Part shown: positions 3,902 to 19,212 of the stretch, in pieces | Layout: the number at the start of each line of letters is the position of its first letter | Position numbering within the stretch: position 1 is the stretch's first letter | Virus record (IMG/VR): IMGVR_UViG_3300012922_000003 | Location: 1 to 43,854 of that record | From: a virus | Length of the DNA stretch: 43,854 nucleotides | Strand: one strand, 5' to 3' | Position numbers and translations under genes: made by a program | The notes under the pieces: model-generated | The model's database searches: none | Told to the model about the DNA's origin: nothing | What the model saw: the letters and a program-made list of their open reading frames with translations, nothing else

Positions 3902-3902
3902 C

Positions 3903-4154: not shown

Positions 4155-4158
4155 CCGG

Positions 4159-7140: not shown

Positions 7141-7375
7141 TGATGGCCTCCTTGTTGGCGGTGGATTCCGCCTTCAAGGATGCGATGGCCTCAGCGTTCC
7201 CGTCCAGCGCGGCCCGGCATTCCTGCGCGACGTTGCCTGCCGCGTTGGCGATCTCGGCGACGGCTTTCGCGGCGTTGAGATAGGCTTCGGCGGCGAGCCA
7301 GCCACAGCGGTATCCGAGCGCGAGCAGTGAGATCATCGCGACGACGGTGCCGAGCGTGGTGAGGAAGAGGCTCAC
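6998..7375 (-). CDS. Membrane-anchored coiled-coil protein, unknown function
   Basis: The GTG start overlaps the upstream stop (GTGA). The N-terminal hydrophobic helix SLFLTTLGTVVAMISLLALGY is followed by an Ala/Glu-rich helical segment. The 3' end overlaps the annotated terL start. Confidence 0.5.
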   Translation of the reverse strand: MSLFLTTLGTVVAMISLLALGYRCGWLAAEAYLNAAKAVAEIANAAGNVAQECRAALDGNAEAIASLKAESTANKEAIIAGQVAIAEALGELLSGFERAGFVRRAQSVGRQHGESTAAAGDEPQA

Positions 7376-7704
7376 GGCTCCTCCCGCTGCGGAATGCCCA
7401 TGCTCTTGAGCAGATCATCGGCGGCAGAACCCGGAGTCGGCATATTCGCGAACTCCGAATAGTGCCGCCACCATGCGTTCGGTCCGGCTCCGGTCGCCTG
7501 GGTGAGCGCGTCGGCGAACATCTGGCCGTGCCGGTTCGTCTCGTCGAACGAGGCCATACGCCGCTCCGGTTCACGGCGCATCGAGCACAGTGGGCAAACG
7601 CAGCACAGTGGGTGACGGTCGAATCCGTCAGAGAACTGACCCGCACGCCAGCGTTCCACCATCCGACACGCCTCGCACTGGCACTGCGCTCCGTGAGTGG
7701 TCAC
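7372..7704 (-). CDS. Cys-rich (zinc-ribbon-like) protein
   Basis: GTG at 7704 with a GTGA overlap to the upstream stop. Contains CQCEAC...CCVCPLC. Trimmed from track ORF 7372..7746. Confidence 0.5.
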   Translation of the reverse strand: MTTHGAQCQCEACRMVERWRAGQFSDGFDRHPLCCVCPLCSMRREPERRMASFDETNRHGQMFADALTQATGAGPNAWWRHYSEFANMPTPGSAADDLLKSMGIPQREEP

Positions 7705-7913
7705 ACTTCCTCCACGGAAAAGGTCCGGGCGAAACGTTCGGCCCAATGGCGTGCTGGCGCCCCTCCGCCGGAGTAGAAGGATCCGATCAGGCGCGGATCA
7801 GGGAGACCGGGCGTGAGGAAGAACACTTCCGATCCGCGCACCTCAACTGCGCAGCCCCCCCGGGTCTCGATCGTAAGCGTTTCGTGTCCGGGTCGGAGCG
7901 GATCATGTATCAC
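7701..7913 (-). CDS. Hypothetical protein
   Basis: GTG at 7913 with a GTGA overlap to the stop of 7910..8554. 70 aa with plausible composition. Confidence 0.45.
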   Translation of the reverse strand: MIHDPLRPGHETLTIETRGGCAVEVRGSEVFFLTPGLPDPRLIGSFYSGGGAPARHWAERFARTFSVEEV

Positions 7914-8554
7914 GTCCCCTCCACGAGGAATGGATCGCGCCACTCGGGGGCGGGCGCAGGTTTCGGCACCAGGCGCACGCCGAGGCTCTTGAGTTGCGCG
8001 CGCATCCGGTCGTAGCGCTCGCGGTCGATGATGCCCCGTGCCGGGGCGCCCGACGGAGCGAGAATCACCGGGGGCGCGACCGGAGGATCAGAGAAAAGAA
8101 TGAGCTGGGGCGCATCTCCACCGCCTTCGCCAGCCGCACCACCACGCTCATCCGCAGGTCCGGCTGCTGCCGCAGCCACCACGCCTGCCCCCACGTCAGC
8201 CCCGCTCGGCGCAGCGCCTCCGACTTGCTCATGCAGGAGCTCCGGCCGCGTGATCGAGCGGATGTGGGCTGCGGCGTCCTGCCGGGCGAGTTGCTCAACC
8301 TCTTCCGCGCTCGGTCCAGAGCCAACTCCCAGGCAGCCTTCGACGGGGCAGCCGTCCTTCTCCTTCCGCCGCGGGTTGATGCCGTGGACCGGGCACGAGA
8401 AGAAGTCGGGCGAGTGCGCCTCGGCGTGGCAGACCGAGCAGATGCCGCCGATGGCCGGGACGCCGCGCTCGTTGACGAGGCGAACGACGCCGTGGATCTT
8501 GCAGATGTTCCACGTCGCGTCCGGGAGTTCGTCGCCTTTGAAGCGGTCATCCAC
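7910..8554 (-). CDS. Hypothetical protein with an N-terminal Cys/His cluster and a low-complexity Ala/Gly/Pro linker
   Basis: 214-aa ORF with a GTG start and GGAGGAG upstream. Contains CKIH...CSVCHAEAH...CPVH...CPVEGC. Confidence 0.55.
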   Translation of the reverse strand: MDDRFKGDELPDATWNICKIHGVVRLVNERGVPAIGGICSVCHAEAHSPDFFSCPVHGINPRRKEKDGCPVEGCLGVGSGPSAEEVEQLARQDAAAHIRSITRPELLHEQVGGAAPSGADVGAGVVAAAAAGPADERGGAAGEGGGDAPQLILFSDPPVAPPVILAPSGAPARGIIDRERYDRMRAQLKSLGVRLVPKPAPAPEWRDPFLVEGT

Positions 8555-8610
8555 GGTGCTCCTCCGTCATGCGGACCACTCTAGCGCTCAAGAGTGGAGC
8601 GCGTCAACGC

Positions 8611-8907
8611 TCACGATGCCCTCCGCCGTTCCGGCCAGCGCACGAAGCCCTCGGGCAACGGCGGCGCCAGCACCCGCGCCAGCCGCGCGTTCTCGTCTCG
8701 CAGCGACACCATCTCGTGTCTCATGTTGGTGATCTCCAGGAGCAGGTCACGCTCGCGTTTGGCCGCTGCGTTGCTGACTTCGATCAGCCGGTGGCGGAGT
8801 TCTCGTTCCGTCGGTGTGCCGCGTGAATCGTGCTCAGAGCGCTCACGGGCGAAGGCGATGCTCGCGAGCCGCCGGACTTCAGCCCGCCGGTAGTTGCGCG
8901 TCGCCAC
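8611..8907 (-). CDS. Hypothetical coiled-coil protein
   Basis: The C-terminal part (ELRHRLIEVSNAAAKRERDLLLEITNMRHEMVSLRDENARLARV) looks helical. The start was placed at the GTG at 8907. The start is uncertain. Confidence 0.4.
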   Translation of the reverse strand: MATRNYRRAEVRRLASIAFARERSEHDSRGTPTERELRHRLIEVSNAAAKRERDLLLEITNMRHEMVSLRDENARLARVLAPPLPEGFVRWPERRRAS

Positions 8908-9394
8908 CGGGTGCTCCGTCGACCGTGGCCGGGTGACTCGCACGCACCGTGAGGAACCCTGGCCGCTCGACTCCCCACCCGAGCTGCCACCCACGGTGCG
9001 CGAGAATCACCGACATCGGCAGCGAGATGCCGCCGCCGGCGTGCAGCACCAGCGGCGCCTCGCTCGACAGCGACGCCACCGCCGCGAGGAAGGCGATGAT
9101 CTCGTTGTTCGCCTCGGTGTGACCGCCCTCCGGCTCAGGCGGATCGTGGTCGCGGCACTCCTCGAGCCAGGTGAATCCGCAGGCCGCGCAGCCGCGGTGG
9201 ATGTGGGGCTGCGGTGCCTCGCACGCCATCGCGCGTTTCGTGCTCGCTTCGCCGCAGTAGCAGAACTCCTGCCGTGCGCAGCCGCACTTGGGGCAGGCGC
9301 CTCCGGTGGCGTTGAACGCGAGGACGCCAGCGCGCTCGGCCGCCTCGGCGATGCGGAGGATGCGCTGGCTCGCGATCTTCGCGTCGTGCCCCAC
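8879..9394 (-). CDS. Cys-rich hypothetical protein
   Basis: 171-aa ORF with a GTG start just after the upstream stop. Contains CPKCGC...CYCG...C..PQPHIHRGCAACG. Confidence 0.5.
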   Translation of the reverse strand: MGHDAKIASQRILRIAEAAERAGVLAFNATGGACPKCGCARQEFCYCGEASTKRAMACEAPQPHIHRGCAACGFTWLEECRDHDPPEPEGGHTEANNEIIAFLAAVASLSSEAPLVLHAGGGISLPMSVILAHRGWQLGWGVERPGFLTVRASHPATVDGAPGGDAQLPAG

Positions 9395-9396
9395 GG

Positions 9397-9702
9397 TTAG
9401 AGCCTTGCGAGCGCGTTTTCGGCGTCGCCGATCGCGACGGCGAGAACGTTGCGCGTCTCTTCGAGGATGAACACGAGATGGTCCGGGCGCGCCTTGGCGA
9501 CCGGGGTGCCCGTCTGGCGAGTAGGCTCGTCGACCGCGTGGATGCGCTGCGCGAGCCCCTCGACGAGATTCGCGAGACGCATCGCCGAATCGAGCAGCGC
9601 GCTAGCCTTGTCGGTGAGCGTCTCGGGGGCCGAACTGCCGACCAGCCCGCGACCGGCCATCCCGGTGTGTTCTGCGGTCGCCGCTGCCACGTACTGTGCC
9701 AT
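9397..9702 (-). CDS. Hypothetical protein
   Basis: 101-aa ORF with an ATG start and GGAG upstream, tightly packed between its neighbours. Confidence 0.5.
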   Translation of the reverse strand: MAQYVAAATAEHTGMAGRGLVGSSAPETLTDKASALLDSAMRLANLVEGLAQRIHAVDEPTRQTGTPVAKARPDHLVFILEETRNVLAVAIGDAENALARL

Positions 9703-9704
9703 GT

Positions 9705-10040
9705 TCAGATCTCCTCCACGGTGATGGTGGTGCGCGGTTCGCCGCGCTCGTCCTCCAGGCGCATCACCAGTTCCCGCACCTGGCGGTCGTTGGTGTAGGC
9801 CACGCCCTGAAGCGCGTCAAGCGCCATCTTCGGGGCGTAGCCGTCGAGGTCCATCCGGTGCCGTCGCGTCTGGCGAAACGAGAGCGTCACGCGCACCGCG
9901 CCGTCGAGCGGAGCGCCGAGCCAGTGGCAGGTGCACTGCACCCATTCGCGCCACGCTTTCGTCTCGCGGTCGCGCACCGACCAGTGGCGGCGCGTCCAGT
10001 CGTTGAGCGACATCGGCAGGCGCGGGACAGCGAAGGTCAT
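9705..10040 (-). CDS. rusA: RusA-like Holliday-junction resolvase
   Basis: 111 aa from the ATG at 10040. The MTFAVPRLPMSLNDWTRRHW...DLDGYAPKMALDALQGVAYTNDRQV pattern matches the RusA D.D....K...DAL......DD.QV signature. The Arg-rich N-terminal extension of the track ORF was discarded. Confidence 0.7.
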   Translation of the reverse strand: MTFAVPRLPMSLNDWTRRHWSVRDRETKAWREWVQCTCHWLGAPLDGAVRVTLSFRQTRRHRMDLDGYAPKMALDALQGVAYTNDRQVRELVMRLEDERGEPRTTITVEEI

Positions 10041-10066
10041 GCGCGTGCGGAGCGCGAGGGCCGGGA

Positions 10067-10597
10067 TCACGTCGCGTACTCCGGCTCGGGCGGCGCGTCC
10101 TCGGCTTCGAGCGCGACCGCGTAACTGCGCCCGGTGGCGCGCCGCGCTCGGGCGTCGATCGGGCCGCCCTGCACCAGCGCTCGCAGCTTCGCGCGATTCG
10201 ACGCCACCACCTCGGGCGTCATCTGCACGAACTCGTGCCGCACTTTCGCCGGATCGAGTGCCCGGCCGTTGTTGGCGACGAACCCGAGTGCGTAGCCGCC
10301 GCGCTTCAAGCACTCCTCGGCCGCATTCGAGGCGGCGACCACCAGCCAGTCCTCGCCCTCGCTCAGATCCTCCCACTGCACCAGCATCGGGAACGCCTCA
10401 GCGAAGCCACCGGCACGGATCAGCGTGGCGAAGGTCGCGGGCGACGTCGGCTCGTGACAGCGCCGATCGAGACACAGCCGCGCCACCAGCGTGGTCAGCG
10501 GCGAGCCGTCGAACTCGCGCTCCCACCCGCCGTCGGGGGCGAATCCGCCGCGGTGCTGAGGAGCCTCGGGCGTGGCGGAAGCGCGGCGCGGACTCAC
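10067..10597 (-). CDS. Hypothetical protein
   Basis: GTG at 10597 with a GTGA overlap to the upstream stop. The 176-aa C-terminal portion of track ORF 10067..10828 has normal composition. Confidence 0.5.
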   Translation of the reverse strand: MSPRRASATPEAPQHRGGFAPDGGWEREFDGSPLTTLVARLCLDRRCHEPTSPATFATLIRAGGFAEAFPMLVQWEDLSEGEDWLVVAASNAAEECLKRGGYALGFVANNGRALDPAKVRHEFVQMTPEVVASNRAKLRALVQGGPIDARARRATGRSYAVALEAEDAPPEPEYAT

Positions 10598-10854
10598 GCC
10601 TTCCCCCAGTTCAGCGGCACGATGATCGGCTTCCCGTGATCGACGGCGCGCCGCCAGTGGGGTCCGAGAAAGGCGCGGCAGCGGCTGTACATCTCGTCGA
10701 GGTCGCGAGAGATCGCGATGCGACAGAGATTGGACATGCGCCGATCCTCGCCGGTCGGGGGCGGCTGACCACCGCGTGATTTGGCGAGGTAGATGCGCTC
10801 GTTGGACAGCAGGACGATGCGGCGGCACAGATCGAGTTGCGAGAGCTCTCTCAC
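10594..10854 (-). CDS. Hypothetical protein
   Basis: GTG at 10854 with a GTGA overlap to the stop of 10851..11630. 86 aa. Confidence 0.5.
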   Translation of the reverse strand: MRELSQLDLCRRIVLLSNERIYLAKSRGGQPPPTGEDRRMSNLCRIAISRDLDEMYSRCRAFLGPHWRRAVDHGKPIIVPLNWGKA

Positions 10855-11630
10855 GCTGGCTCCTGCTCGTAGCGCCGCTGGTTCAGCCACGTCGCCGCGT
10901 GCGGGATGAACTCGGCCTCCGTCCCGCGCTCCTGCCACCAGCGCACCCAATGCTCGAGCCGGTCGAGGATCTGCCCGAAGGCAAGGTCGCGCCCGGCCTG
11001 GTCAGCCCCCTTCGGGCGGATCTTGCGCCAACTCCGCAGCGCTGCCACCCGGCTCACCCGCCGCGGGTACATCCCCCAGAACTCATCGAACCCGGACTCC
11101 CAATCGACCACCGGGTCGGGGTGATGTCCGTTGCCGACGTCAGGGTTCGTCAGCCCCGCTGACGGGGACCCTACGAGCGTAGCGAGTAGGGAATCTGTAG
11201 GTTCTACAGCAACAGCAGAAGCAGAAGCATAGGGTAGGTTTGGCTTCCTTGTGCTAGAGGCTGGCTTTAGACCCATGCCGCCATGTGATATACGACCGCC
11301 TCTAGAACCACGCGATGCGGCACTCATGTACCTGCAAACCTGTTGATGTCGGTGCATCACCATCGCGAACTGAACCAGGCTTCCATCAGCTTGAGCTTGG
11401 GTTTCTTTAGCTAGCAGTTGCTTGAAGCTCGGGTGGCAGTCAGGTTCCGCACCGCTCCACCGAATCCACTCATCGAGGGTGCCGACCCCGTAGGATCCAG
11501 AGTCCCAGGAGGCGTCGAGCGCCCGGCGGTAGGCTAACTCGGTGGGGTCGTCGATCATCAGCAGGCGCATCTTCGCGGCGAAGTCCCGCGGGAACCACTG
11601 GTAGGAAGGCGCCCGATCGTTGGCCGGCAT
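10851..11630 (-). CDS. Replication initiation/organiser protein (DUF1376-like N-terminus, DnaT/DnaD-like C-terminal motif)
   Basis: The N-terminus YQWFPRDFAAKMRLLMIDDPTELAYRRALDASW fits the DUF1376 Y.W...DF pattern. The C-terminus FDEFWGMYPRRVSRVAALRSWRKI...IPHAATWLNQRRYEQE is the common phage replication-protein tail. The central linker is encoded by a low-GC island. Confidence 0.55.
   Translation of the reverse strand: MPANDRAPSYQWFPRDFAAKMRLLMIDDPTELAYRRALDASWDSGSYGVGTLDEWIRWSGAEPDCHPSFKQLLAKETQAQADGSLVQFAMVMHRHQQVCRYMSAASRGSRGGRISHGGMGLKPASSTRKPNLPYASASAVAVEPTDSLLATLVGSPSAGLTNPDVGNGHHPDPVVDWESGFDEFWGMYPRRVSRVAALRSWRKIRPKGADQAGRDLAFGQILDRLEHWVRWWQERGTEAEFIPHAATWLNQRRYEQEPA
11161..11420. 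other. Candidate origin of replication embedded in the replication-protein gene
   Basis: Locally AT-richer stretch within a GC-rich genome. Palindromes ctacgagcgtag (11171..11182) and ctgtag-gtt-ctacag (11195..11209). Tandem gcagaa-gcagaa-gca (11215..11229). Several GTAGG motifs. Inverted ctagaggc/gcctctag (11254..11261 and 11298..11305). Confidence 0.35.
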
Positions 11631-11842
11631 CAGCGAATCCCCGCCGCCCGCGCACGCCGTCGCTCCGCTATCGCGTGCACGTACGGCAACTCCCGCCGCG
11701 TCACCGCGTACTCGTGCGACGCCTCGAACCCGAGCTTCACCCGCCCGCCGTTGATCTCCACCGCCACCACCCGCACGATCACCTCACCGGCCGCGTCGCG
11801 CACCAGGATCTCCTCGTTCTCCCGACGCTCCAAAACCAGCAT
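11630..11842 (-). CDS. csrA: CsrA/RsmA-family RNA-binding regulator homolog (70 aa)
   Basis: MLVLERRENEEILVRDAAGEVIVRVVAVEINGGRVKLGFEASHEYAVTRRELPY aligns by eye to E. coli CsrA ([47 protein letters not shown]), including the ML.L.RR start and the V.R.E segment. A strong SD, GGAAAGGAGG, lies 7 nt upstream of the ATG at 11842. The longer track ORF to 12007 was rejected. Confidence 0.65.
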   Translation of the reverse strand: MLVLERRENEEILVRDAAGEVIVRVVAVEINGGRVKLGFEASHEYAVTRRELPYVHAIAERRRARAAGIR

Positions 11843-12613
11843 CGCAAGCCTCCTTTCCCGCCTCGCCTGTGCACTGGCTCCCGAGTGGGGACCGGGTGGC
11901 CTCGGGGTAACTTCCGAGGAGTGCCGTTCCATCGCGCGAGCGAGAGGTTGGGCCATCAACCGATCCCCGCTCAGGTGCCAATGCGACCTCACTCTCGCAT
12001 CGCTCACCTACCCTGCTCCCGCGATCTCCTCCCTGTCAACCACCAAAAAAATCCGCCCGCCCTCTCGCGCCGCGACCACCGTGAGGCTTCCACCTCGGCG
12101 CTGCGTCGGAGCCTCCTGCGCCGGGTGGCGATGACCTGCGGCCGGGCAGCCGGCCTGCGCCTCGGCGCGCCCCCGGGCAGCGCTCGTGCGCCACGCTCCC
12201 CACGCTGGCGAGCTCCGCCGCGCGTCCGTGCTCGCCGGTCCGCGAGCGTCCGCCAGCCGCGCTCGAGCTTTTCGCGCACAGTCGCTCCATCTCCGGTGCA
12301 TGTTGAGAAGTAGACTCGTGCGAGGGTGTAGGTGAGTCTGGTGAAGGTGTAGGGGAGCAGTCTCGGGGAGTGAGCGCAGTGCCAAGGAATGGGGGTTGTC
12401 CGCGCGCGCGCGGAGACGTGCGCGTGTGTGCGCGCGAGGGGTGGGGGGTTGTTGGGGGCTGTGAGTTATGACGAAGGAATGTCTTTCTTAGCGGTGCTCG
12501 TTTGTCAATCTTTCGTGTTTCTTCGCGAATGCTATTGACACAGGAATGACGCGGGCTCATAGTGTGAGTACGCGAGCGGGGAATGGACCCGGCCCGCGAT
12601 TGGCGAGGGTCCG
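11843..12613. promoter_or_regulatory. Divergent control region between the leftward (csrA/replication) operon and the rightward accessory island
   Basis: About 770 bp with no credible ORF; all track ORFs here are Arg/Pro-rich. Contains repeated motifs, a (CG)n palindrome, G-runs, a TTGACA on each strand and hairpins next to both first genes. Confidence 0.7.
12535..12563 (+). promoter_or_regulatory. Sigma70-like promoter for the plus-strand island
   Basis: TTGACA (12535..12540), a 17-nt spacer, then CATAGT (12558..12563), about 50 nt upstream of the ATG at 12614. Confidence 0.4.
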
Positions 12614-12850
12614 ATGACACTTCAACAGTTGGAGTCGGCGCATCCGTGGGTGAGCGCCACGCAGCCCGCACCGATGACGCGCCGCCTCGCTGCGCTGATC
12701 CGCCACGAGGGATCGCGCGTCCGCCTCAGCCACGATCAGGTGATCTGCCCCCGTTGTACAGCGCGGAAGCGGGCCAACCTTGTAACGCGCGAATGGATTA
12801 TCCAGCACTCACGAGACGCCGACCGCCGCGCCGCGAAGGAGACACGATGA
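12614..12850 (+). CDS. Small protein with a CPRC motif, first gene of the plus-strand island
   Basis: 78-aa ORF with an ATG start. The stop overlaps the next ATG (ATGA at 12847..12850). An alternative internal start is the ATG at 12674, inside the 23-bp repeat. Confidence 0.5.
   Translation: MTLQQLESAHPWVSATQPAPMTRRLAALIRHEGSRVRLSHDQVICPRCTARKRANLVTREWIIQHSRDADRRAAKETR
12664..12686 (+). repeat. 23-bp direct repeat, copy 1 (gcccgcaccgatgacgcgccgcc)
   Basis: Identical to 13496..13518. Each copy contains an ATG followed by ACG CGC CGC. Confidence 0.9.
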
Positions 12851-13509
12851 GCGCACTGTCTGAACTGATCGCCACCCGCTTCGGCGGGATCTTGCTCGCT
12901 GGCAAGCACAAGATGACACTCGACCTCGAATCGTTCCAGCTTTCCGCCGGCGCACACGGCACCAAGTTTGCCGGCCAAGCCTGCTTCATCGAAGCCGCTT
13001 CGGTCTACCACGGCGAGCCGTTCCGGGACCGCGCCGTGGACGAGTTCTGCCCGCGCATCGAAGCCTACGGCCGCATCCTCAACGACTGGTTGCCCGACGC
13101 CGACCGCCAGCGCCTCAAGGCGTTCATCCCGCGGCTCAAGAACACTCGTGGAACTCCTGAGCAGGATCAGCGCAAGCGCTGGATGATCCAGGATACGGCC
13201 ACCCGCGTCTTTGCGGCGGAGGCGCTGCGTGCCGCCGGACTGACCGAACAGGCCGATCAGCTCGCCGCCTGCACCGTGACCGATCAAGCCTCGTCGGATG
13301 CCGCCAGCGCGAGTGCCGCGAGGGCCGCGGAGGCCGCGGAGGCCGCGAGGGCCGCGTGGGCCGCGTGGGCCGCGTGGGCCGCGGGGGCCGCGAGTGCCGC
13401 GAGGGCCGCGGGGGCCGCGAGGGCCGCGGGGGCCGCCATCATCGACGACGCTATCGACCTGCTGGACCGCCTGATTCGCGTCACGGAGGAAGCATGCCCG
13501 CACCGATGA
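12847..13509 (+). CDS. Hypothetical protein with a C-terminal (X-Ala-Ala)x14 repeat
   Basis: AAGGAG lies 6 nt upstream of the ATG at 12847. 220 aa. The N-terminal domain (QACFIEAASVYHGEPFRDRAVDEFCPRIEAYGRILNDWLPDADRQRLKAFIPRLKNTRGT) is followed by SAARAAEAAEAARAAWAAWAAWAAGAASAARAAGAARAAGAA. Confidence 0.65.
   Translation: MSALSELIATRFGGILLAGKHKMTLDLESFQLSAGAHGTKFAGQACFIEAASVYHGEPFRDRAVDEFCPRIEAYGRILNDWLPDADRQRLKAFIPRLKNTRGTPEQDQRKRWMIQDTATRVFAAEALRAAGLTEQADQLAACTVTDQASSDAASASAARAAEAAEAARAAWAAWAAWAAGAASAARAAGAARAAGAAIIDDAIDLLDRLIRVTEEACPHR
13312..13437 (+). repeat. Fourteen in-frame 9-bp tandem repeats (NNN-GCC-GCG)
   Basis: Read directly. The units are agt/agg/gag/gag/agg/tgg/tgg/tgg/ggg/agt/agg/ggg/agg/ggg, each followed by gccgcg (the last unit ends gccgcc). 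Only the first codon of each unit varies. Confidence 0.95.
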
Positions 13510-13518
13510 CGCGCCGCC
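13496..13518 (+). repeat. 23-bp direct repeat, copy 2
   Basis: Identical to 12664..12686. It spans the stop codon of the 12847..13509 gene. Confidence 0.9.
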
Positions 13519-13640
13519 CGTCTGGGCGCGCGATGGAACTGGATCGCGCTCGTGATTGACGGACACGAGAGCACCCAAACGGATGCCCAATACGCGGCGA
13601 AGCAGGCCCGCGCCGCGTTGGCGAAAGCCGGGGTGACGCC

Positions 13641-13871
13641 GTGAGCACGCGCTTCGTGGGCGGCAAGCGCGACGGTGCCGAGTTCATCGCCCGCAACCTG
13701 CAGCTGATCCTGCGCGAGCCGGACGGGGAGCTCTACTACCTGCGTTACGACGCCGGGAGGATGCGCTACGTCGCGGGATCACTGGTCGCAGCGACCGAAG
13801 GCGGCATCCCGACTAGGCGCGAGATCGACGCGGAGCGCAGGAAGTGGGACCGCAGGGGGCCGATCGAATGA
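13641..13871 (+). CDS. Hypothetical protein
   Basis: 76-aa ORF with a GTG start and normal composition (STRFVGGKRDGAEFIARNLQLILREPDGELYYLRYDAG...). Confidence 0.5.
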   Translation: MSTRFVGGKRDGAEFIARNLQLILREPDGELYYLRYDAGRMRYVAGSLVAATEGGIPTRREIDAERRKWDRRGPIE

Positions 13872-13976
13872 GCCGCCGCGCGTTGCGGCAGTGCCGATGC
13901 ACCTGTCGTGTGCGCGGCTCTACGCTCCGAAACCCACCAGCAGGCGCCGCCGTGTCGCGGCGCAGAAGGAGGCCGC

Positions 13977-14231
13977 ATGGCAACGCTGAACCTCGCCGCT
14001 CGACTCACCGCCGCAGACGTGGTGCGCGCCCAGCTCTGGCACTGGCACGCCCAAGCGCAGCGCGTCCGCTCTCAGGTCGGGAACGCTCGGGCGATCCTGG
14101 CGCTGAGCGCGCAGTCGCCGAGGCACGACGAGGCGCGGCTCGAGCTTGCGCGTGCGGCGGAGAACCTCGACCAGCTCACGGCCGCGATCCAGCACTCAGC
14201 CTGCCCGCGGGAGGCTCGCCCGGCGGACTAG
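13977..14231 (+). CDS. Hypothetical helical protein
   Basis: The ATG at 13977 is preceded by GAAGGAGG. 84 aa. The upstream part of the track ORF was trimmed. Confidence 0.55.
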   Translation: MATLNLAARLTAADVVRAQLWHWHAQAQRVRSQVGNARAILALSAQSPRHDEARLELARAAENLDQLTAAIQHSACPREARPAD

Positions 14232-14255
14232 ACCGCGAAGCGCCCCGAATGGCAG

Positions 14256-14288
14256 AAACGGCCTCGGCCTCGCCCGCCGGGGCCGTTT
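14256..14288. terminator. Hairpin between convergent genes (possible bidirectional terminator)
   Basis: AAACGGCC (14256..14263) pairs with GGCCGTTT (14281..14288). An inner stem cggc/gccg is also present. It sits between the plus-strand stop at 14231 and the minus-strand stop at 14288. Confidence 0.5.
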
Positions 14289-15019
14289 CACAGCTCCGGG
14301 GCTTCCCAGGCCGGTTCAGGCTGGGCGATCTCGGCGGAGTCTGAGTCCCAAGCCTCGGGCGGTGGCGGTGTCTCAGCCGGGCCGACCGGCAGCGCCAAGC
14401 CGGGCACGTCCGCCAGCGCCACGAGCCGGAAAGTGAGCGGGTCGCCAGTCTCGCCCAGCAGCGCCCGGGCGACCCCCCGACGCCACCCGACGCCGGGCAG
14501 GCCCGGGAGCCCGTCCGAGGCATCGCCCATCAGCCCGAGCAAGGCGCGCAGGAACATCGGCGGCACGCCCCAGCGGTCCATCACCCCCGCCTCGTCGATC
14601 TCCTTGCCTGCCGACGTCACCACCCGGCAACCGGGATCTTCGACGAGCTGCAGCATGTCCTTGTCGTCCGAGACGACGGCGGCCGAGTCGCCGTGCTCGA
14701 GCGCGAGCCGCGTCAGTGTTGCCAGCAGGTCGTCGGCTTCGTAGCGCGCGACCTCAAGGTGCTCGAACGGTAGCGCCCGACACTGGGCGATCGCGCGCAC
14801 AAGGGCGTCAGGCTTCTTGCGGCGCCCGTGTTTGTAGGCGGCGAAGATTTCCTGCCGCCAGGTCGGAGCCGGCGCGTCCCAGCACAGCGTGATCGTGCTG
14901 GCGCGCGCGTTCTCGGCGAGGCGCAGCACTAGTGCGCGTGTGCGCTCGGGAGCGCCGTTGGCGTTCGCCCACCACAGCTTGCAGGCCACGCCGTTCGCGT
15001 CCACGAGGAGGTGTGTCAC
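14288..15019 (-). CDS. 5'-3' exonuclease / flap endonuclease (Pol I 5'-nuclease family)
   Basis: 243 aa from the GTG at 15019 (GTGA overlap). Contains LLVDANGVACKLWWA, YKHGRRKKPDAL, YEADDLLATL, VVSDDKDMLQLV and LMGDASDGLPGLPGVG (H3TH-like). Confidence 0.75.
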   Translation of the reverse strand: MTHLLVDANGVACKLWWANANGAPERTRALVLRLAENARASTITLCWDAPAPTWRQEIFAAYKHGRRKKPDALVRAIAQCRALPFEHLEVARYEADDLLATLTRLALEHGDSAAVVSDDKDMLQLVEDPGCRVVTSAGKEIDEAGVMDRWGVPPMFLRALLGLMGDASDGLPGLPGVGWRRGVARALLGETGDPLTFRLVALADVPGLALPVGPAETPPPPEAWDSDSAEIAQPEPAWEAPEL

Positions 15020-15234
15020 GGCAGCGCCCTCACGCTGTCGAAGTCGAACTTGCTCCAGTCGTGGGCGTGCCGGGTCTCCCAGCTCGGGAGATGGCCATGA
15101 TAGAGCGTGTAGATGGCACCCAACTCCACGCCGTATTCGGTGCGGAGACGCGCCATCCTCGCGTGGTGGAGTTCGCGGGCCACGAGCATCCCGATCAGGA
15201 TGCCGACCACCAGCGGCCAAGGGTTGAACCTCAC
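15016..15234 (-). CDS. Small membrane protein
   Basis: 72 aa, with a GTGA overlap at the start. N-terminal TM helix PWPLVVGILIGMLVA. Confidence 0.5.
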   Translation of the reverse strand: MRFNPWPLVVGILIGMLVARELHHARMARLRTEYGVELGAIYTLYHGHLPSWETRHAHDWSKFDFDSVRALP

Positions 15235-15494
15235 GGCTCGACCCCGGCGGCGCGCAGGCGGTCCAGGGCGGCCCAGCCCTGCGAGGGCCGAGACCCGTAA
15301 CTCTCCTCAATCTGGGACATGAGGTTCTTGAGCGCCGCCACCGCCGCGCACAGCGCCAGCACGCGCTCGGGAAACATCTCTAACACGAGTTTCACTCCCG
15401 GGTCGTCTTTCTTCGGTTGCCTACCGTGCTCCCAGAAATCCGCTTCATCGCTAATGGCCGCCCGCGCCAGCGCCTCCAGTTCCGCGAGTTTCAC
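15231..15494 (-). CDS. Hypothetical protein
   Basis: 87 aa, GTG start with GGAGGTGAG upstream. Normal composition. Confidence 0.55.
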   Translation of the reverse strand: MKLAELEALARAAISDEADFWEHGRQPKKDDPGVKLVLEMFPERVLALCAAVAALKNLMSQIEESYGSRPSQGWAALDRLRAAGVEP

Positions 15495-15533
15495 GGTCTC
15501 ACCTCCAGGTAGTGCGCGATGGGTCGGGGGGCT

Positions 15534-15974
15534 TCACCGCACCTTCTCGATCGTCCCGACGCCGCGCGCCGGGTCCACGGTCACGCGACCGCGCCGTTTG
15601 CCATTGACAACGTTGTTGACGTGCGTTCTTGAGATTCCGAACTCTCGACACATCACAACCTGAGACTCCCCGGCTGCTGCGCGTCGCCTGATCGACTCAA
15701 TCGTGTCGTCCGGGATCACGTGGGCATGACGGCCCTTGCGCGCCATGTCTTGCATGTTGTCTCGGTGAGTTCCAACCCACAGATGGTCTGGGTTCACACA
15801 CCGCGGATTGTCGCACCGGTGGAGGACGCAACTCCCCTCGGGGATAGGTCCAAGCCATCGCTCGTAGGACCAGCGATGGGCGCGTATCCATCGGGTTCCA
15901 ACGGAAAATCTTGGGTAGCCGTCCCAGTAGGCGCTAGCCGTCCACAACCAGCACCCGCTTGGACCGCGTTCCAC
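15534..15974 (-). CDS. HNH homing-type endonuclease with a C-terminal HTH-like segment
   Basis: GCWLWTASAYWDGYPRF...RAHRWSYERW.GPIPEG..VLHRCDNPRCVNPDHLWVGTHRDN is the classic HNH_3 pattern. Confidence 0.75.
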   Translation of the reverse strand: MERGPSGCWLWTASAYWDGYPRFSVGTRWIRAHRWSYERWLGPIPEGSCVLHRCDNPRCVNPDHLWVGTHRDNMQDMARKGRHAHVIPDDTIESIRRRAAAGESQVVMCREFGISRTHVNNVVNGKRRGRVTVDPARGVGTIEKVR

Positions 15975-16005
15975 GCGCGACAGGAATCAATGTCGTCGCT
16001 CTCGC

Positions 16006-17115
16006 TCACGTGATGAATCTCCCCGATCGCTCGCCCGGACGCACTTCGACCAATCCGTGCTCAAATGACCTGGTCCATCTCCCGTCGTTCGCTAGGACTG
16101 CGGTACCAGCCGGAGCGCCGAGGTTGAGGTCCATCTCCGGAATCCAGATATCGACCATCCCGCGGATGGCGGGATGCCCAGCTTCGTCCGGGGGCGGAAC
16201 GATGACGCCACACCCTTCCCCGAGAGTTGCAGACGCAAGCACGAAGCGGAGGCGTCTTTCGTCTTCCGCATGGTTGCCAGTGGCGATGATGTTCAAAAAC
16301 GAGAGTGGCGGCCTCAAGTAACGCTCTCCGTCCAGCAAATACCCCGGTCCTGGCCATATACCCGGGGCGGTCCCGACCATGTTGGATTCCCAAGTGCCAC
16401 CGTTCTGCGCTGGGAATGCCTCTCGACACCAACCGTTGAACACATCGGGGTCGCTCCCCGGACCGCAGTTGCCGACCAGCAGCTTGTCGCCGATGTGCCA
16501 GCGCAGGCCCTCGACGTAGGCGCGTCGGCCGTTCTGCCAGGCGCGCTCGAAGCTCGGGAAATCCGGGAAGCCGGCGCGCACGAAGTCGAACTGCTGCTCC
16601 GGCGTCTGCATCCACGCGAGCGTCGGGCAGCAGAGGTCGAGGAACAGACCATCGGCGAGCGCGCGTGTGCGATCCCAAGACGGCATGACCCCGGTCTCGG
16701 CGATGGCGCGGGCGTCGTGGTGAGAGAGCGCCCACGGCACCGCCCAGTGGGCGAAGTTGACGTTGCAGCCGGGGAACAACCTTCCATCTTTCGCCCACAC
16801 GAACGCCTTCTCCCCGTAGTGCGCGAGCGCCAACCAGCGCTGGTGCGCGAAGTCCTCCGCCCCGGCGCTCGGGTTGTTCCAGACTGCGTGCGCGGTGTTG
16901 AACAGCAGCAGCGTCATCGCCGGATTGCGCTTCTTCAAGGCCTCGGCGATCTCGGGATACCACAGCAGCGGCGCGGCATCCAGCACCACCACCGAGTAGC
17001 GGGCGTGGAGGTCTAGCTGGGCGTCGTTCAACGAGCCATCGGGGTTCCTGAGCGGCCAGCCGTCGCTATGTCCGCCGCGGCAGAAGCCATAGACCGAGGT
17101 ACGAGGATACTTCAC
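16006..17115 (-). CDS. TIM-barrel glycoside-hydrolase-like protein (GHL15-like, tentative)
   Basis: 369 aa with no signal peptide. The motifs ADGLFLDLC, NGWCREAFP, RFVLASATLGEG and the C-terminal W.PE.DLNLGAPAG......W.R.F.HGLVEVRP resemble hypothetical glycosyl-hydrolase family 15 as I recall it (not searched). The ATG overlaps the methyltransferase stop (ATGA). Confidence 0.4.
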   Translation of the reverse strand: MKYPRTSVYGFCRGGHSDGWPLRNPDGSLNDAQLDLHARYSVVVLDAAPLLWYPEIAEALKKRNPAMTLLLFNTAHAVWNNPSAGAEDFAHQRWLALAHYGEKAFVWAKDGRLFPGCNVNFAHWAVPWALSHHDARAIAETGVMPSWDRTRALADGLFLDLCCPTLAWMQTPEQQFDFVRAGFPDFPSFERAWQNGRRAYVEGLRWHIGDKLLVGNCGPGSDPDVFNGWCREAFPAQNGGTWESNMVGTAPGIWPGPGYLLDGERYLRPPLSFLNIIATGNHAEDERRLRFVLASATLGEGCGVIVPPPDEAGHPAIRGMVDIWIPEMDLNLGAPAGTAVLANDGRWTRSFEHGLVEVRPGERSGRFIT

Positions 17116-17819
17116 AGCGGCTCCTCGAATGGATCGGTCAGGCTACCTTGATGCGGAGCCACCGCTTTCTCGGGCGCGAACTCCATCACTTCCTGCGCGA
17201 GGCGCTTGGCGGCGATCTCGCAGTAGCGCTCCTCGATCTCAATGCCGATTGCGCGGCGACCACCTTTCTTGGCTGCAATGAGGATTGTTCCTGATCCAGT
17301 GAATGGGTCCAGCACAACTTCGCCGGGGTCGGACCACCACGCCACCACCCAATCGGCGTGCTTTGGGTAACGTGGAGTTGGATGGTTCAGCTCTCGCTTG
17401 CCTTGTATGTAGGTTGCGCTGCATTCTCCTGGAATGACCGTACGCCCCTCAGCCCGCGCGATGTATTCACCGAACCCGTATAGCACGTCCCCCGAGACAA
17501 GGGTGCGTGAGTTATACCCGGGAATGGCGCGACGAAGATAAGAGACGCGCAGGAATGGCCATCGATCAGGAACCGAGCGCAGCATTCGTGGATCCGTGCC
17601 ACAGCCGAGCCAGATCGCTAGACGTTTGACAGAAGGCGCGGCGGACAAAGCCTCTCTCAAGAGCGCTTCTGGCCGGTCCCAGCCTTCTAGGCCATCGTGG
17701 GAGTTGGTCCACACCGGGTCTGTTATCAGGCTGTCGGCGGAGAGCCCCGGGAGCACCTCCCTGCAATCCCCGTGGTAGATGGTGATGCCGGCGTAGTCGT
17801 AGTAGGGCTTCACGGGCAC
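17112..17819 (-). CDS. DNA methyltransferase, beta-class N6/N4 family, with an atypical DPVW motif IV
   Basis: TIYHGDCREVLPGL....LITDPVW (motif IV variant of DPPY/W), then later VLDPFTGSGTILIAAKKGGRRAIGIEIEERY (motif I). Confidence 0.8.
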   Translation of the reverse strand: MPVKPYYDYAGITIYHGDCREVLPGLSADSLITDPVWTNSHDGLEGWDRPEALLREALSAAPSVKRLAIWLGCGTDPRMLRSVPDRWPFLRVSYLRRAIPGYNSRTLVSGDVLYGFGEYIARAEGRTVIPGECSATYIQGKRELNHPTPRYPKHADWVVAWWSDPGEVVLDPFTGSGTILIAAKKGGRRAIGIEIEERYCEIAAKRLAQEVMEFAPEKAVAPHQGSLTDPFEEPL

Positions 17820-17853
17820 GGCGTCATCCTCCCGTGCGAGACGTAGCCCGACC

Positions 17854-18201
17854 TCACTCTGCCGCCTCGTAGGTGGCCTCGAAGATGTCGGGCTTCACCG
17901 GATAGAACTCACCATTGATCCCGGTCACGATCCAGTCGCCCGGGCAGACCGTGTGCCCGCCCTCGGGGGTGTCGATCCATCCATGCTCGTGCATCGTGCG
18001 CCCACAGGGCACAGACCTAAGGCACATCGCGTCGCCTGAAATCGCGGGGTGCCGGAAGTAGCGCACGACCTTCCCCTCCAGCAACTCGCCCGCGAACTCT
18101 CCGCCGTCAAACCGCTCGGTTCCGTCGTTAGGATGGTCGCCGTTTTTCCACCACCGGTGCGCCTCAATCACGATCGGCTTTTTGCGGTACTTGGTCGTCA
18201 T
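17854..18201 (-). CDS. PGDYG-like small phage protein
   Basis: 115 aa from the ATG at 18201 (ATGA coupling). KKPIVIEAHRW...CPGDWIVTGINGEFYPVKPDIFEATYE. Confidence 0.5.
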   Translation of the reverse strand: MTTKYRKKPIVIEAHRWWKNGDHPNDGTERFDGGEFAGELLEGKVVRYFRHPAISGDAMCLRSVPCGRTMHEHGWIDTPEGGHTVCPGDWIVTGINGEFYPVKPDIFEATYEAAE

Positions 18202-18716
18202 GGACACGGCACCATCCTCCCCCTGTAGAACCACTCGGGCGGTCCGGGCTCCCTGCGCGAGCACTGGCAGATCGCCGCGCGGTCGCGCTCCTGCAGTTCG
18301 TCCCACGACAACGCCTCGGCCCCAGGCGTCTGCGCCATCGTCAGCGTCCACCACAGGCGCCCGCCCTGGGTGCGCTGCCAGTGCGTGCCGGGCGGACATG
18401 ACCACAGCGTGTCTCCGAGCCCGGCCACCGCGATCACACCGTTCGACCACTCGGCGATCTTGCTGTTCGAGTCCACCGCCGCGACGCGATACATGCGCCA
18501 GCGCTGATCCTGAGAGAGCGAGACGTAGACGTGCTCCGAATCTCCGGCAGCGCGCTTGGGGACGGGAGGACCGGCAGTCGGAAATGGCGCAGAGTAGAGC
18601 CGAGGCAGCCAGGCGTATCCGGTGGCGTCGTTGGCGCGGCACTGGTAGGACGCGAGAGGCGCTTGCGACCGCGGCGTAGTGAAGGTCAGGTGCAGCCACA
18701 CCGCGAGGACGATCAT
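18198..18716 (-). CDS. Hypothetical protein with a hydrophobic N-terminus
   Basis: 172 aa from the ATG at 18716, preceded by GGAGGT. Starts MIVLAVWLHLTF. Trimmed from the track ORF. Confidence 0.5.
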   Translation of the reverse strand: MIVLAVWLHLTFTTPRSQAPLASYQCRANDATGYAWLPRLYSAPFPTAGPPVPKRAAGDSEHVYVSLSQDQRWRMYRVAAVDSNSKIAEWSNGVIAVAGLGDTLWSCPPGTHWQRTQGGRLWWTLTMAQTPGAEALSWDELQERDRAAICQCSRREPGPPEWFYRGRMVPCP

Positions 18717-18886
18717 GGGGACCTCCGTATCTGGTCGCCGACGATTACAACCAGAATGGCGATCAGCAACCAGTTCGACGCGCGGCTGAATCCCAGTTCC
18801 GGCCCAAAAATGAACGGCGAGACAAATGATGTTACGACGAAGCCGGCCGCCACCGAGTATTCGATTCTCCACTTCAATCCGCCCAT
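18713..18886 (-). CDS. Small two-TM membrane protein
   Basis: 57 aa from the ATG at 18886 (GGAGAGAGGA upstream). Sequence is MGGLKWRIEYSVAAGFVVTSFVSPFIFGPELGFSRASNWLLIAILVVIVG. Confidence 0.45.
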   Translation of the reverse strand: MGGLKWRIEYSVAAGFVVTSFVSPFIFGPELGFSRASNWLLIAILVVIVGDQIRRSP

Positions 18887-19179: not shown

Positions 19180-19212
19180 CCCGATCTCGCATTTGCCTAA
19201 GAGCCGGCGCGG

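What the first reader, a model, noticed from the sequence alone, without database searches (positions are those of the whole stretch)
11630..12040. Phage-encoded CsrA homolog as the first gene of the replication operon, with GGA-containing leader structures
The 70-aa product aligns along its whole length with CsrA/RsmA. It has a near-perfect SD and is the promoter-proximal gene of the leftward operon. Its leader contains the hairpin CCUCGG-AAGUUACC-CCGAGG (11900..11919) presenting a GGA at the stem/loop junction. The SD itself (GGAAAGGAGG) contains GGA. This is the arrangement used for CsrA autoregulation in E. coli. A phage copy could reprogram host post-transcriptional control (carbon storage, motility, biofilm) or time phage translation.
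Basis: partly seen in the sequence, partly recalled or inferred. Interest (0 to 1): 0.7.

Follow-up and report, generated by a model that had tools for sequence, protein, structure and literature searches.

The report
Divergent phage CsrA-like RNA-binding regulator

Summary
The 70-aa ORF at 11630..11842 (-) is a genuine member of the CsrA family. It scores 43.3 bits against Pfam PF02599 (cut-off 27). The RNA-contact residues L2, L4, R6, R7 and R49 (E. coli R44) are kept. The AlphaFold model has pLDDT 86.8, and its top 15 PDB matches are all CsrA, RsmA or RsmE. It has an AGGAGG Shine-Dalgarno sequence 6 nt before the ATG. It is the first ORF after a 771-nt non-coding gap and strand switch. Its stop overlaps the start (TGATG) of a replication-initiator-like gene at the head of a tightly packed 8-gene operon.

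The window is a novel phage genome with terminase, portal and major head genes; the host is unknown. The protein has no relative above about 50% identity in the libraries searched, which represent about 15 billion proteins.

The leader claim does not hold as evidence. The hairpin at 11900..11919 exists, but such hairpins occur at or below chance frequency. Its GGA lies mostly inside the stem. GGA density is only mildly raised. A GGA in the Shine-Dalgarno sequence is generic in this phage.

Phage csrA genes are already known (PHROG 9500, 88 GenBank phage records, a 2020 survey, a 2025 knock-down). Verdict: a new, divergent member of a known kind, of modest interest.

The parts
11630..11842 (-). 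csrA-like CDS, 70 aa (MLVLERRENEE...AAGIR). ATG at 11842-11840, TGA at 11632-11630.
   Evidence: ORF and sequence. Pfam CsrA 43.3 bits. phrog_9500. Third-position GC of 0.93-0.95 in this frame only, which stops at the ATG. AF2 model pLDDT 86.8. Foldseek top 15 matches all CsrA/RsmA/RsmE.
11849..11859 (-). Ribosome-binding region GGGAAAGGAGG. AGGAGG lies at 11854..11849, 6 nt before the ATG. It holds two overlapping-range GGA motifs (11858-11856 and 11853-11851).
   Evidence: Read. A weak hairpin gcggg-AAAGGAGG-cuugc could place the Shine-Dalgarno sequence in a loop. An alternative local fold pairs the AUG region with the leader.
11900..11919 (-). It is real as a sequence feature but is at chance frequency, and its GGA is mostly inside the stem.
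11843..12613 (.). 771-nt non-coding region between csrA and the divergent plus-strand genes. It must hold the promoter(s) of the csrA operon.
   Evidence: No frame-specific third-position GC signal. No called gene. No Rfam match.
12034..12051 (-). TTGACA (12039..12034) preceded by a run of 7 T (12051..12045). Candidate -35 element with an UP-like element for the csrA operon, giving a leader of about 160 nt. No good -10 element at 16-18 nt.
   Evidence: 3 of the 6 TTGACA in the whole window lie in this intergenic region. The promoter scan found no minus-strand site here.
12503..12563 (.). Back-to-back TTGACA boxes: 12508..12503 on the minus strand and 12535..12540 on the plus strand. The plus-strand box forms TTGACA-17-CATAGT (12535..12563), upstream of the 78-aa plus-strand gene.
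   Evidence: (I13).
12385..12548 (+). Three copies of AGGAATG (12385, 12475, 12542). Two are embedded in a 13-mer, TGACGAAGGAATG and TGACACAGGAATG. Candidate operator or regulatory repeats; function unknown.
   Evidence: 3 of the 7 copies in the window; D9. The third copy sits in the spacer of the plus-strand promoter-like site.
10851..11630 (-). Replication-initiator-like gene, 259 aa. Its ATG shares base 11630 with the csrA stop (TGATG), which implies translational coupling.
   Evidence: C-terminal residues 172-258 match phrog_270, phrog_9327 and phrog_9474, annotated as replication initiation or primosomal proteins. Weak tblastn hits to phage proteins.
8611..10854 (-). Rest of the tightly packed early operon: genes of 86, 176, 121 (RusA, 9705..10070), 101, 171 and 98 aa. 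Junctions are overlaps of 4, 4 and 4 nt, gaps of 2 and 2 nt, then an overlap of 29 nt.
   Evidence: Gene calls and the Pfam RusA hit. Coordinates converted as window = 21843 - L001. No PHROG hits for the others.
12614..14231 (+). Divergent block of four plus-strand genes (78, 220, 71 and 84 aa) with no recognisable family. These are the only genes called on this strand in the 20-kb locus L001 (window about 1630..21840).

Best explanation
The ORF encodes a functional, highly divergent CsrA-family protein.

**Inferred from family knowledge.** It is a small homodimeric RNA-binding protein that recognises GGA-containing sites, typically at or near Shine-Dalgarno sequences, and changes translation or mRNA stability.

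**Shown by the sequence.** It is the first cistron of the phage's early replication/recombination operon. It is translationally coupled to the replication-initiator-like gene through a TGATG overlap.

**Inferred timing and role.** It is therefore made as soon as that operon is transcribed, in fixed proportion to Rep. The most likely role is early post-transcriptional control. It would bind GGA-type ribosome-binding sites of host and/or phage mRNAs to redirect translation during infection. A plausible secondary effect is damping of its own bicistronic csrA-rep message, but this has no specific support.

**Context.** The same placement recurs in unrelated phages: at or near the head of early operons, next to nucleases, recombinases, ATPases or polymerases. 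This argues that the gene serves the phage's own early programme and is not a lysogenic-conversion cargo gene.
For: **Family membership**
- Pfam CsrA 43.3 bits against a cut-off of 27.
- phrog_9500 'CsrA-like regulator'.
- PDB sequence hits are only CsrA proteins. They align L2, L4, R6, R7 and R49 with the E. coli RNA-contact residues.
- In a 37-sequence alignment of the nearest relatives, M1, L2, G38 and R49 are invariant. L4, R6, L37 and E51 are at least 90% conserved.
- The AF2 model has pLDDT 86.8. Its top 15 Foldseek PDB matches are all CsrA/RsmA/RsmE, with probability 0.89-1.00 (1.00 for the top 14) and TM 0.45-0.76.

**A real gene with the short start**
- Third-position GC is 0.93-0.95 in frame and drops to background upstream of the ATG.
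- There is a strong AGGAGG Shine-Dalgarno sequence.
- All relatives begin with MLVL.

**Operon position and coupling**.

**Phage identity of the window**: terminase, portal, major head protein and exonuclease.

**Recurrent early-operon placement**
- IMG/VR contigs L002-L012 carry csrA-like genes directly upstream of YqaJ + RecT, upstream of an AAA_24 ATPase, or between an exonuclease and DNA polymerase A.
- In F116 and phi297, csrA lies in an operon leading to an exonuclease (F116) or to a PD-(D/E)XK nuclease and RecT (phi297).
- In VvAW1, csrA lies between a DEDD exonuclease and an HNH endonuclease.

**A phage csrA can matter for infection**: knock-down of PTXU04 gp28 reduces plaque size (PMC11879866).
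Against: - No RNA binding, dimerisation or target has been tested. The dimer model could not be run.
- The protein scores far below every NCBIfam csrA equivalog cut-off. It has a 5-residue longer beta2-beta3 hairpin than canonical CsrA, so its specificity may differ.
- The host is unknown. Whether a host Csr system exists to be hijacked cannot be said.
- The leader carries no statistically distinctive CsrA-type sites.
- The window holds no CsrB/Rsm-type RNA and no FliW.
- The placement of csrA in phages is not universal. In Bcep22-like podoviruses it sits between structural genes and is treated as a moron (PMC9144972).
Confidence: 0.75

Rival explanations
1. Autoregulatory leader. CsrA binds the hairpin at 11900..11919 together with the Shine-Dalgarno GGA. 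It thereby represses its own translation and, through coupling, that of Rep, as E. coli CsrA does on its own leader.
For: - GGA motifs lie in and just before the Shine-Dalgarno sequence (11858-11851).
- Further GGA lie 28 nt (11881) and 62 nt (11915) upstream, within the spacing a CsrA dimer can bridge (own knowledge of E. coli CsrA).
- 9 GGA occur in the 200-nt leader, a count reached by about 2% of windows.
- The Shine-Dalgarno sequence can sit in the loop of a weak hairpin.
- In unrelated viral contigs L002, L005 and L006, the csrA leader really is GGA-rich, with a conserved hairpin presenting GGA in its loop.
Against: - The named hairpin is at chance frequency and keeps both G's of its GGA base-paired.
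- The leader folds no better than shuffles.
- Five other genes have as many upstream GGA.
- GGAG-type Shine-Dalgarno sequences are generic in this phage.
- No relative exists with which to test conservation of the leader.
Confidence: 0.2
2. Lysogenic-conversion cargo (moron). The gene is carried to reprogramme host physiology (motility, biofilm, carbon storage, immunity) from a prophage, as proposed for plasmid RsmQ and for csrA in Bcep22-like phages.
For: - Phage and plasmid csrA genes are discussed in this way in the literature (PMC7366521; PMC9144972; PMC9928087, listed).
- Host Rsm controls CRISPR-Cas expression (PMC8450108, listed).
Against: - The gene has no promoter or terminator of its own.
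- It overlaps the rep start codon and heads a packed 8-gene early operon.
- No integrase or recognisable repressor was found in the parts of the window examined.
- Its composition matches the phage.
Confidence: 0.15
3. The CsrA fold is re-used for another job at the 'cro position'. One version is a nucleic-acid-binding switch protein that acts on the divergent control region, for example on the three AGGAATG repeats as DNA or as RNA of the opposite transcript. Another version is a protein-binding factor.
For: - It is the first gene next to a divergent control region that holds 3 of the window's 6 TTGACA and 3 of its 7 AGGAATG.
- AGGAAUG resembles the CAGGAUG-type repeats of CsrB (own knowledge).
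- The protein is very divergent and lies below the equivalog cut-offs.
Against: - All RNA-contact residues of canonical CsrA are retained.
- The only sigma-70-like plus-strand promoter would start transcription downstream of all three repeats.
- No CsrA-family member is known to bind DNA (own knowledge).
- The clustering statistics are post hoc, and the region is locally AT-richer.
Confidence: 0.07
4. Chance ORF or decayed pseudogene with no function.
For: The protein is a singleton: no relative above about 50% identity.
Against: - Strong frame-specific codon bias.
- A canonical Shine-Dalgarno sequence and an intact full-length domain with conserved key residues.
- A confident fold prediction.
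Confidence: 0.02

Closest known systems
Phage-encoded CsrA/Rsm homologs: PHROG 9500 'CsrA-like regulator'; the 'RsmM' type of P. aeruginosa phages such as F116 and phi297; Vibrio phage VvAW1 gp26; coliphage PTXU04 gp28.
   Same: - A small CsrA-domain protein encoded by a tailed phage.
- In F116, phi297 and VvAW1 it also lies in an early operon with nuclease and recombination genes.
- It has a PHROG 9500 match.
- The PTXU04 homolog contributes to plaque size.
   Different: - tblastn of this protein against 50,697 GenBank phage records finds nothing at E <= 0.01. It is therefore far from all of these homologs.
- Here it is the very first cistron and overlaps the rep start. In F116 and phi297 it is the 4th gene and carries a long C-terminal extension (123 aa).
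E. coli CsrA / Pseudomonas RsmA and RsmE (PDB 1y00, 1vpz, 2jpp, 2mfc, 7yr6)
   Same: - Same fold at the monomer level.
- Same N-terminal MLxLxRR motif and the same GxxVRLG...V.R.E motif, including the critical arginine.
   Different: - About 25-35% identity.
- A 5-residue longer beta2-beta3 hairpin and a basic C-terminal helix at residues 57-67.
- Fails the equivalog cut-offs.
- No sponge RNA or FliW partner is encoded nearby.
csrA in the replication region of S. meliloti plasmid pMBA19a; plasmid RsmQ of pQBR103; CsrT of Legionella ICEs
   Same: - A CsrA homolog carried by a mobile element.
- In pMBA19a it is physically linked to the replication module, in a host without a chromosomal csrA (PMC7366521).
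   Different: - Those are plasmid or ICE genes close to gammaproteobacterial CsrA.
- This one is in a phage, is far more divergent, and is translationally coupled to rep.
Long-loop and tandem-duplicated CsrA proteins from metagenomes (P0002-P0107)
   Same: - These are the nearest sequence relatives (34-57% identity).
- Many share the extended beta2-beta3 loop and the GGRVKLGFEA motif.
   Different: - None is close enough to be an ortholog.
- Their contexts are mixed: chromosomal, integrase-bearing elements, and short contigs.
- The two genome hits found are flagellar csrA-fliW loci in alphaproteobacterial MAGs.

Membership tests
CsrA/RsmA family (Pfam PF02599) | Sequence match to the family HMM above the curated gathering score | tested here: met
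   43.3 bits against a gathering score of 27, E 3.5e-11, residues 1-52 on model positions 1-47 of 53.
CsrA/RsmA family (Pfam PF02599) | Conserved RNA-contact residues. In E. coli numbering: L2, L4, R6, R7 in beta1, and V42, R44, E46, I47 in beta5. | tested here: met
   Alignments to 1y00, 2bti and 1t3o place L2, L4, R6, R7, V47, R49, E51 and L52 at these positions. R49 and L2 are invariant, and L4, R6 and E51 are at least 90% conserved, among 37 relatives. Which residues are critical is taken from my own knowledge of published alanine scanning.
CsrA/RsmA family (Pfam PF02599) | Monomer fold of five beta-strands followed by a C-terminal alpha-helix | tested here: met
   The AF2 model has pLDDT 86.8. 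DSSP assigns three strands and one helix. Beta1 and beta5 are unassigned in the isolated monomer, as expected if they pair with the partner subunit. The top 15 Foldseek matches are all CsrA/RsmA/RsmE. E-values are only 5e-3 to 0.13 because the domain is very small.
CsrA/RsmA family (Pfam PF02599) | Interdigitated (strand-swapped) homodimer | not testable with these tools
Only a monomer could be modelled.
CsrA/RsmA family (Pfam PF02599) | Binding of GGA-containing RNA, preferably in hairpin loops | not testable with these tools
   This needs EMSA or CLIP. Candidate sites in the window are not statistically distinctive.
Orthologous 'carbon storage regulator CsrA' (NCBIfam equivalogs TIGR00202, NF002469, NF001844) | Score above the equivalog cut-off | tested here: not met
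   36.0 vs 70.1, 33.0 vs 73, and 32.4 vs 106. It is a family member but not an equivalog of chromosomal CsrA.
Csr/Rsm system (protein plus antagonist) | A cognate antagonist: a multi-GGA sponge sRNA (CsrB, CsrC, RsmX, RsmY, RsmZ) or the FliW protein | tested here: not met
   No Rfam family reaches its gathering score anywhere in the window. There is no FliW-like ORF. There is no GGA-dense non-coding stretch: the maximum is 4 ANGGA per 150 nt. An antagonist could be host-encoded, and the host is unknown.
CsrA autoregulatory leader (E. coli csrA type) | Several CsrA sites in the gene's own leader, including one over the Shine-Dalgarno sequence, more than background would give | tested here: inconclusive
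   GGA overlaps the Shine-Dalgarno sequence, but 23 of the 29 other genes listed also have a GGA within 20 nt of their start. There are 5 GGA per 100 nt (top 5% of windows) and 9 per 200 nt (top 2%). The hairpin is at chance frequency. No homologous leaders exist for comparison.
Phage CsrA-like regulators (PHROG 9500) | Match to the PHROG profile and location in a phage genome | tested here: met
   phrog_9500 at E 4.7e-8, residues 1-54 on profile positions 1-48 of 65. The window encodes a terminase, portal, major head protein and internal virion protein.

The most novel reading that the evidence does not exclude
The CsrA-like protein is the phage's early post-transcriptional switch, an RNA-level counterpart of Cro. 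Made first from the leftward operon, it would set the dose of the coupled replication initiator by feedback on the csrA-rep message. At the same time it would bind the AGGAAUG repeats and GGA hairpins of the divergent control-region transcripts, silencing the four unknown plus-strand genes. If so, the recurrent placement of csrA-like genes at the head of early replication/recombination operons in unrelated phages would mark a general, unrecognised mode of phage developmental control.
Probability: 0.1. Interest if true: 0.65.

Novelty: new member of a known kind. Interest (0 to 1): 0.3.

Why it matters
Phage-borne CsrA homologs are catalogued, but their function is almost untested. The only evidence I found is one knock-down phenotype.

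This example adds a very divergent sequence from an otherwise unknown phage lineage. It also has an unusually clean arrangement: it is the first cistron and is start/stop-coupled to the replication initiator.

Together with the viral contigs and GenBank phages examined here, it suggests that phage csrA genes often belong to the early replication/recombination programme and are not always cargo. That gives a concrete hypothesis for experiments. It does not open a new category of system.

Tried and rejected
**Looking for close relatives to compare the leader**
- A word-indexed search of 5.8 billion proteins found only the protein itself.
- A full HMMER search of 1.84 billion representatives gave a best hit of about 46-57% identity.
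- IMG/VR with the single protein found nothing. GenBank phages by DNA and by tblastn found nothing.
- No comparative test of the leader was therefore possible.

**Identifying the host**
- The portal protein found nothing in genome contigs or in GenBank phages.
- The CsrA motif returned only two alphaproteobacterial flagellar csrA-fliW loci, which are not close.
- The SRA run id appears in no paper.

**Rep relatives**: none in IMG/VR.

**PHROG annotation**: none of the ten neighbouring small genes had a hit.

**Rfam**: nothing in the control region at E <= 1, and nothing in the whole window at gathering scores.

**CsrB-like decoy**: a search for a GGA-dense stretch found none. The best stretch, 13451..13625 on the plus strand, does not fold better than shuffles.

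**Longer 125-aa ORF from GTG 12007**: rejected. There is no codon bias upstream of 11842, and all homologs start at MLVL.

**Minus-strand promoter**: sigma-70 rules give TTGACA boxes at 12039 and 12508 but no acceptable -10 element. The transcription start of the operon stays undetermined.

**Gene downstream of csrA in contig L020**: it is not a homolog of the window's rep.
Full report
**1. What is at the coordinates**

- On the minus strand an ORF runs from ATG 11842-11840 to TGA 11632-11630. It encodes 70 aa: MLVLERRENEEILVRDAAGEVIVRVVAVEINGGRVKLGFEASHEYAVTRRELPYVHAIAERRRARAAGIR.
- AGGAGG lies at 11854..11849, 6 nt before the ATG.
- The stop codon shares base 11630 with the ATG of the next gene (TGATG).
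- A longer in-frame ORF from GTG 12007 exists. However, frame-specific third-position GC is 0.93-0.95 inside the 70-aa ORF and falls to background upstream of 11842. All relatives start with MLVL. The 70-aa reading is therefore the right one.

**2. Is it CsrA?**

- Pfam PF02599 (CsrA) scores 43.3 bits against a gathering score of 27, E 3.5e-11, over residues 1-52.
- PHROG 9500 'CsrA-like regulator' matches at 4.7e-8.
- The NCBIfam equivalog models for chromosomal CsrA match but lie far below their cut-offs: 36 vs 70.1, 33 vs 73, 32.4 vs 106. It is a family member, not an ortholog-grade CsrA.
- A sequence search of the PDB returns only CsrA proteins, weakly (E 0.004-0.65). The alignments keep L2, L4, R6 and R7, and R49 sits at the position of E. 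coli R44.
- In an alignment of 37 of the nearest single-domain relatives, M1, L2, G38 and R49 are invariant. L4, R6, L37 and E51 are at least 90% conserved.
- An AlphaFold2 model built on that alignment has mean pLDDT 86.8.
- Its 15 best Foldseek matches in the PDB are all CsrA, RsmA or RsmE chains, with probability 0.89-1.00 (1.00 for the top 14) and TM 0.45-0.76.
- Strands beta1 and beta5 are not assigned in the isolated monomer. That is what a strand-swapped dimer would give, but the dimer itself could not be modelled.
- Compared with canonical CsrA, the protein has a 5-residue longer beta2-beta3 hairpin and a basic C-terminal helix at residues 57-67.

**3. How isolated is it?**

- A word-indexed search of 5.8 billion proteins finds only the protein itself, on a 43,872-bp contig. 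This shows the window is essentially a whole contig.
- An exhaustive HMMER search of 1.84 billion cluster representatives finds 107 hits at E <= 1e-3. Beyond the protein itself, none is better than E 3.4e-8, and identities run from 34% to 57%.
- Many hits share the long loop, and many are tandem double-CsrA proteins.
- There is no match in 50,697 GenBank phage records by DNA or tblastn.
- IMG/VR holds no close relative.

**4. Context**

- The window is a phage genome. It carries a large terminase with a LAGLIDADG insert, a P22-type portal, a major head protein, an internal virion protein and a 5'-3' exonuclease.
- It resembles no deposited phage. The host could not be determined.
- Nearly all genes called in the 20-kb locus L001 are on the minus strand. 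Most high-GC3 ORFs elsewhere in the window are on the minus strand too.
- A block of four unannotatable plus-strand genes (12614..14231) interrupts them.
- Next comes a 771-nt stretch with no coding signal (11843..12613).
- csrA follows, then a packed operon. Rep-like gene 10851..11630 has a C-terminal domain matching PHROGs 270, 9327 and 9474.
- Further genes of 86 and 176 aa, RusA, and genes of 101, 171 and 98 aa follow. Junctions are overlaps of 1, 4, 4 and 4 nt, gaps of 2 and 2 nt, and an overlap of 29 nt.
- 'First gene of the replication operon' is therefore correct.

**5. The control region**

- Three of the six TTGACA hexamers in the whole 43.9-kb window lie in the control region. They are at 12039..12034 (minus strand, preceded by a run of 7 T), 12508..12503 (minus strand) and 12535..12540 (plus strand).
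- About 0.1 would be expected in 771 bp (my arithmetic).
- Only the plus-strand box has a sigma-70-like partner, TTGACA-17-CATAGT at 12535..12563. The start of the csrA transcript therefore remains unknown.
- Three of the seven AGGAATG heptamers of the window cluster at 12385, 12475 and 12542 on the plus strand. Two sit in a 13-mer repeat (D9), and one lies in the spacer of the plus-strand promoter.
- These look like regulatory repeats. Whether they act as DNA or RNA is open.
- There is no Rfam match here or anywhere in the window.

**6. The leader claim**

- The inverted repeat CCUCGG-AAGUUACC-CCGAGG is exactly at 11919..11900 and forms in the predicted folds.
- Perfect 6-bp stems with 3-10 nt loops occur 169 times in the window, against 201 +/- 16 in Markov simulations.
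- The 221-nt leader is no more stable than shuffles (z = -0.68).
- The GGA has both G's in the stem and only the A in the loop. This is not the loop-presented arrangement CsrA prefers.
- GGA counts are 5 in the 100 nt upstream, reached by 5% of all windows and by 5 of the 29 other genes' upstream regions. They are 9 in 200 nt, reached by about 2% of windows.
- 23 of the 29 other genes listed also have a GGA within 20 nt of their start, because their Shine-Dalgarno sequences are GGAG-type.
- Slightly better candidate sites exist. The Shine-Dalgarno sequence could lie in the loop of a weak hairpin, gcggg-AAAGGAGG-cuugc. A second candidate is cacu-CGGGAGCC-agug, 28 nt upstream.
- An alternative local fold instead pairs the AUG with the leader.
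- With no homologous leaders to compare, none of this can be tested. The autoregulation idea is possible but unsupported.

**7. Comparison with other phages**

- A motif scan of IMG/VR found 11 viral contigs with csrA-like genes at 36-48% identity. They are otherwise unrelated to this phage, apart from one weak match (25% identity) between L010 and the window's 369-aa protein.
- In L002-L006 the gene follows a divergent region and overlaps a YqaJ exonuclease gene, which is followed by RecT.
- In L008 it precedes an AAA_24 ATPase.
- In L009 and L011 it lies between an Rv2179c-like exonuclease and a family A DNA polymerase.
- tblastn with P. aeruginosa RsmA finds csrA homologs in 88 GenBank phage records.
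- In F116 and phi297 the gene is the 4th of an early operon. That operon leads to an exonuclease in F116, and to a PD-(D/E)XK nuclease and RecT in phi297.
- In VvAW1 it sits between a DEDD exonuclease and an HNH endonuclease.
- In Bcep22-like podoviruses it lies among structural genes and is called a moron, possibly virion-associated (PMC9144972).
- Early-operon placement is thus common but not universal.
- The leaders of L002, L005 and L006 are truly GGA-rich: 10 and 8 GGA in 160 nt (L002, L005) against a background of 3.1 and 2.5.
- Those leaders share a conserved block with AAGGAUG on both sides of a hairpin. The arms of that hairpin differ between contigs but still pair, and its loop carries GGA. 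This shows what a convincing CsrA-type leader looks like. The window has nothing comparable.

**8. Mechanism**

- *Shown:* a conserved CsrA domain; first-cistron position; start/stop overlap with rep; membership of an early replication/recombination operon.
- *Inferred from family knowledge:* a homodimer binding GGA sites at ribosome-binding regions and altering translation.
- *Most likely role (confidence about 0.75 for identity and general mode of action):* an early phage translational regulator acting on host and/or phage mRNAs.
- *Feedback on the csrA-rep message:* an attractive sub-hypothesis at about 0.2.
- *Other rivals:* lysogenic-conversion cargo (0.15), a re-purposed fold acting on the divergent control region (0.07), a non-functional ORF (0.02).

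**9. Novelty**

- Phage csrA genes are a curated PHROG family.
- They were surveyed in 2020, when 30 of 2517 phage genomes carried one (PMC7366521).
- They are annotated in dozens of GenBank phages.
- One was shown to affect plaque size (PMC11879866).
- Plasmid and ICE homologs are also known, including one in a plasmid replication region.
- This is a new and unusually divergent member of a known kind, in a novel phage, with a neat coupling to rep. Interest is modest (0.3).

Noticed in passing
window 12385..12548 (+): Three of the window's seven AGGAATG heptamers cluster in 164 bp of the control region. Two sit inside a 13-mer direct repeat (TGACGAAGGAATG and TGACACAGGAATG). One lies in the spacer of the plus-strand promoter-like site. 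They could be operators, or GGA-type RNA sites if that strand is transcribed from further upstream.
   Followed up: partly
window 12034..12039 (-), 12503..12508 (-), 12535..12540 (+): Three of only six TTGACA hexamers in the 43.9-kb window lie in the 771-nt intergenic region. Two are back to back, 27 bp apart, on opposite strands. Only the plus-strand one has a recognisable -10 element.
   Followed up: partly
window 12300..12460: There is strong strand asymmetry here: 46-52% G and 12-20% C on the plus strand. The stretch includes a 21-nt tandem pair (12313..12354) and a long alternating-GC hairpin (about 12398..12441) whose loop reads GGAGAC on the plus strand. No explanation was found.
   Followed up: no
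window 13451..13625 (+): This is the highest density of ANGGA motifs in the window: 4 in 150 nt against a mean of 0.31. It lies between the 220-aa and 71-aa plus-strand genes. Two of the GGA lie in predicted hairpin loops. The stretch folds no better than shuffles.
   Followed up: partly
window 4159..6843 (-): The large terminase gene (894 aa) has terminase similarity at both ends and a LAGLIDADG_3 domain in the middle. This suggests an intein or a homing-endonuclease insertion.
   Followed up: no
L002:1895-2062, L005:3840-4003, L006 (IMG/VR contigs): The leaders of the csrA-like genes in these viral contigs carry 8-10 GGA in 160 nt. They share a conserved block: AAGGAUG, then a hairpin with GGA in its loop whose arms differ between contigs but still pair, then GGGAAAGGAG, then GAAGGAUG. 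This is a strong candidate CsrA-binding, autoregulatory leader.
   Followed up: partly
proteins P0002-P0012 and others: Many of the nearest relatives are tandem double-CsrA proteins (130-210 aa, two CsrA domains in one chain). They would form a covalently linked pseudo-dimer.
   Followed up: no
window 12847..13509 (+): The 220-aa plus-strand protein ends in a long alanine-rich repeat (AARAAEAAEAARAAWAAWAAWAAGAASAARAAGAARAAGAA). It has no family match.
   Followed up: no
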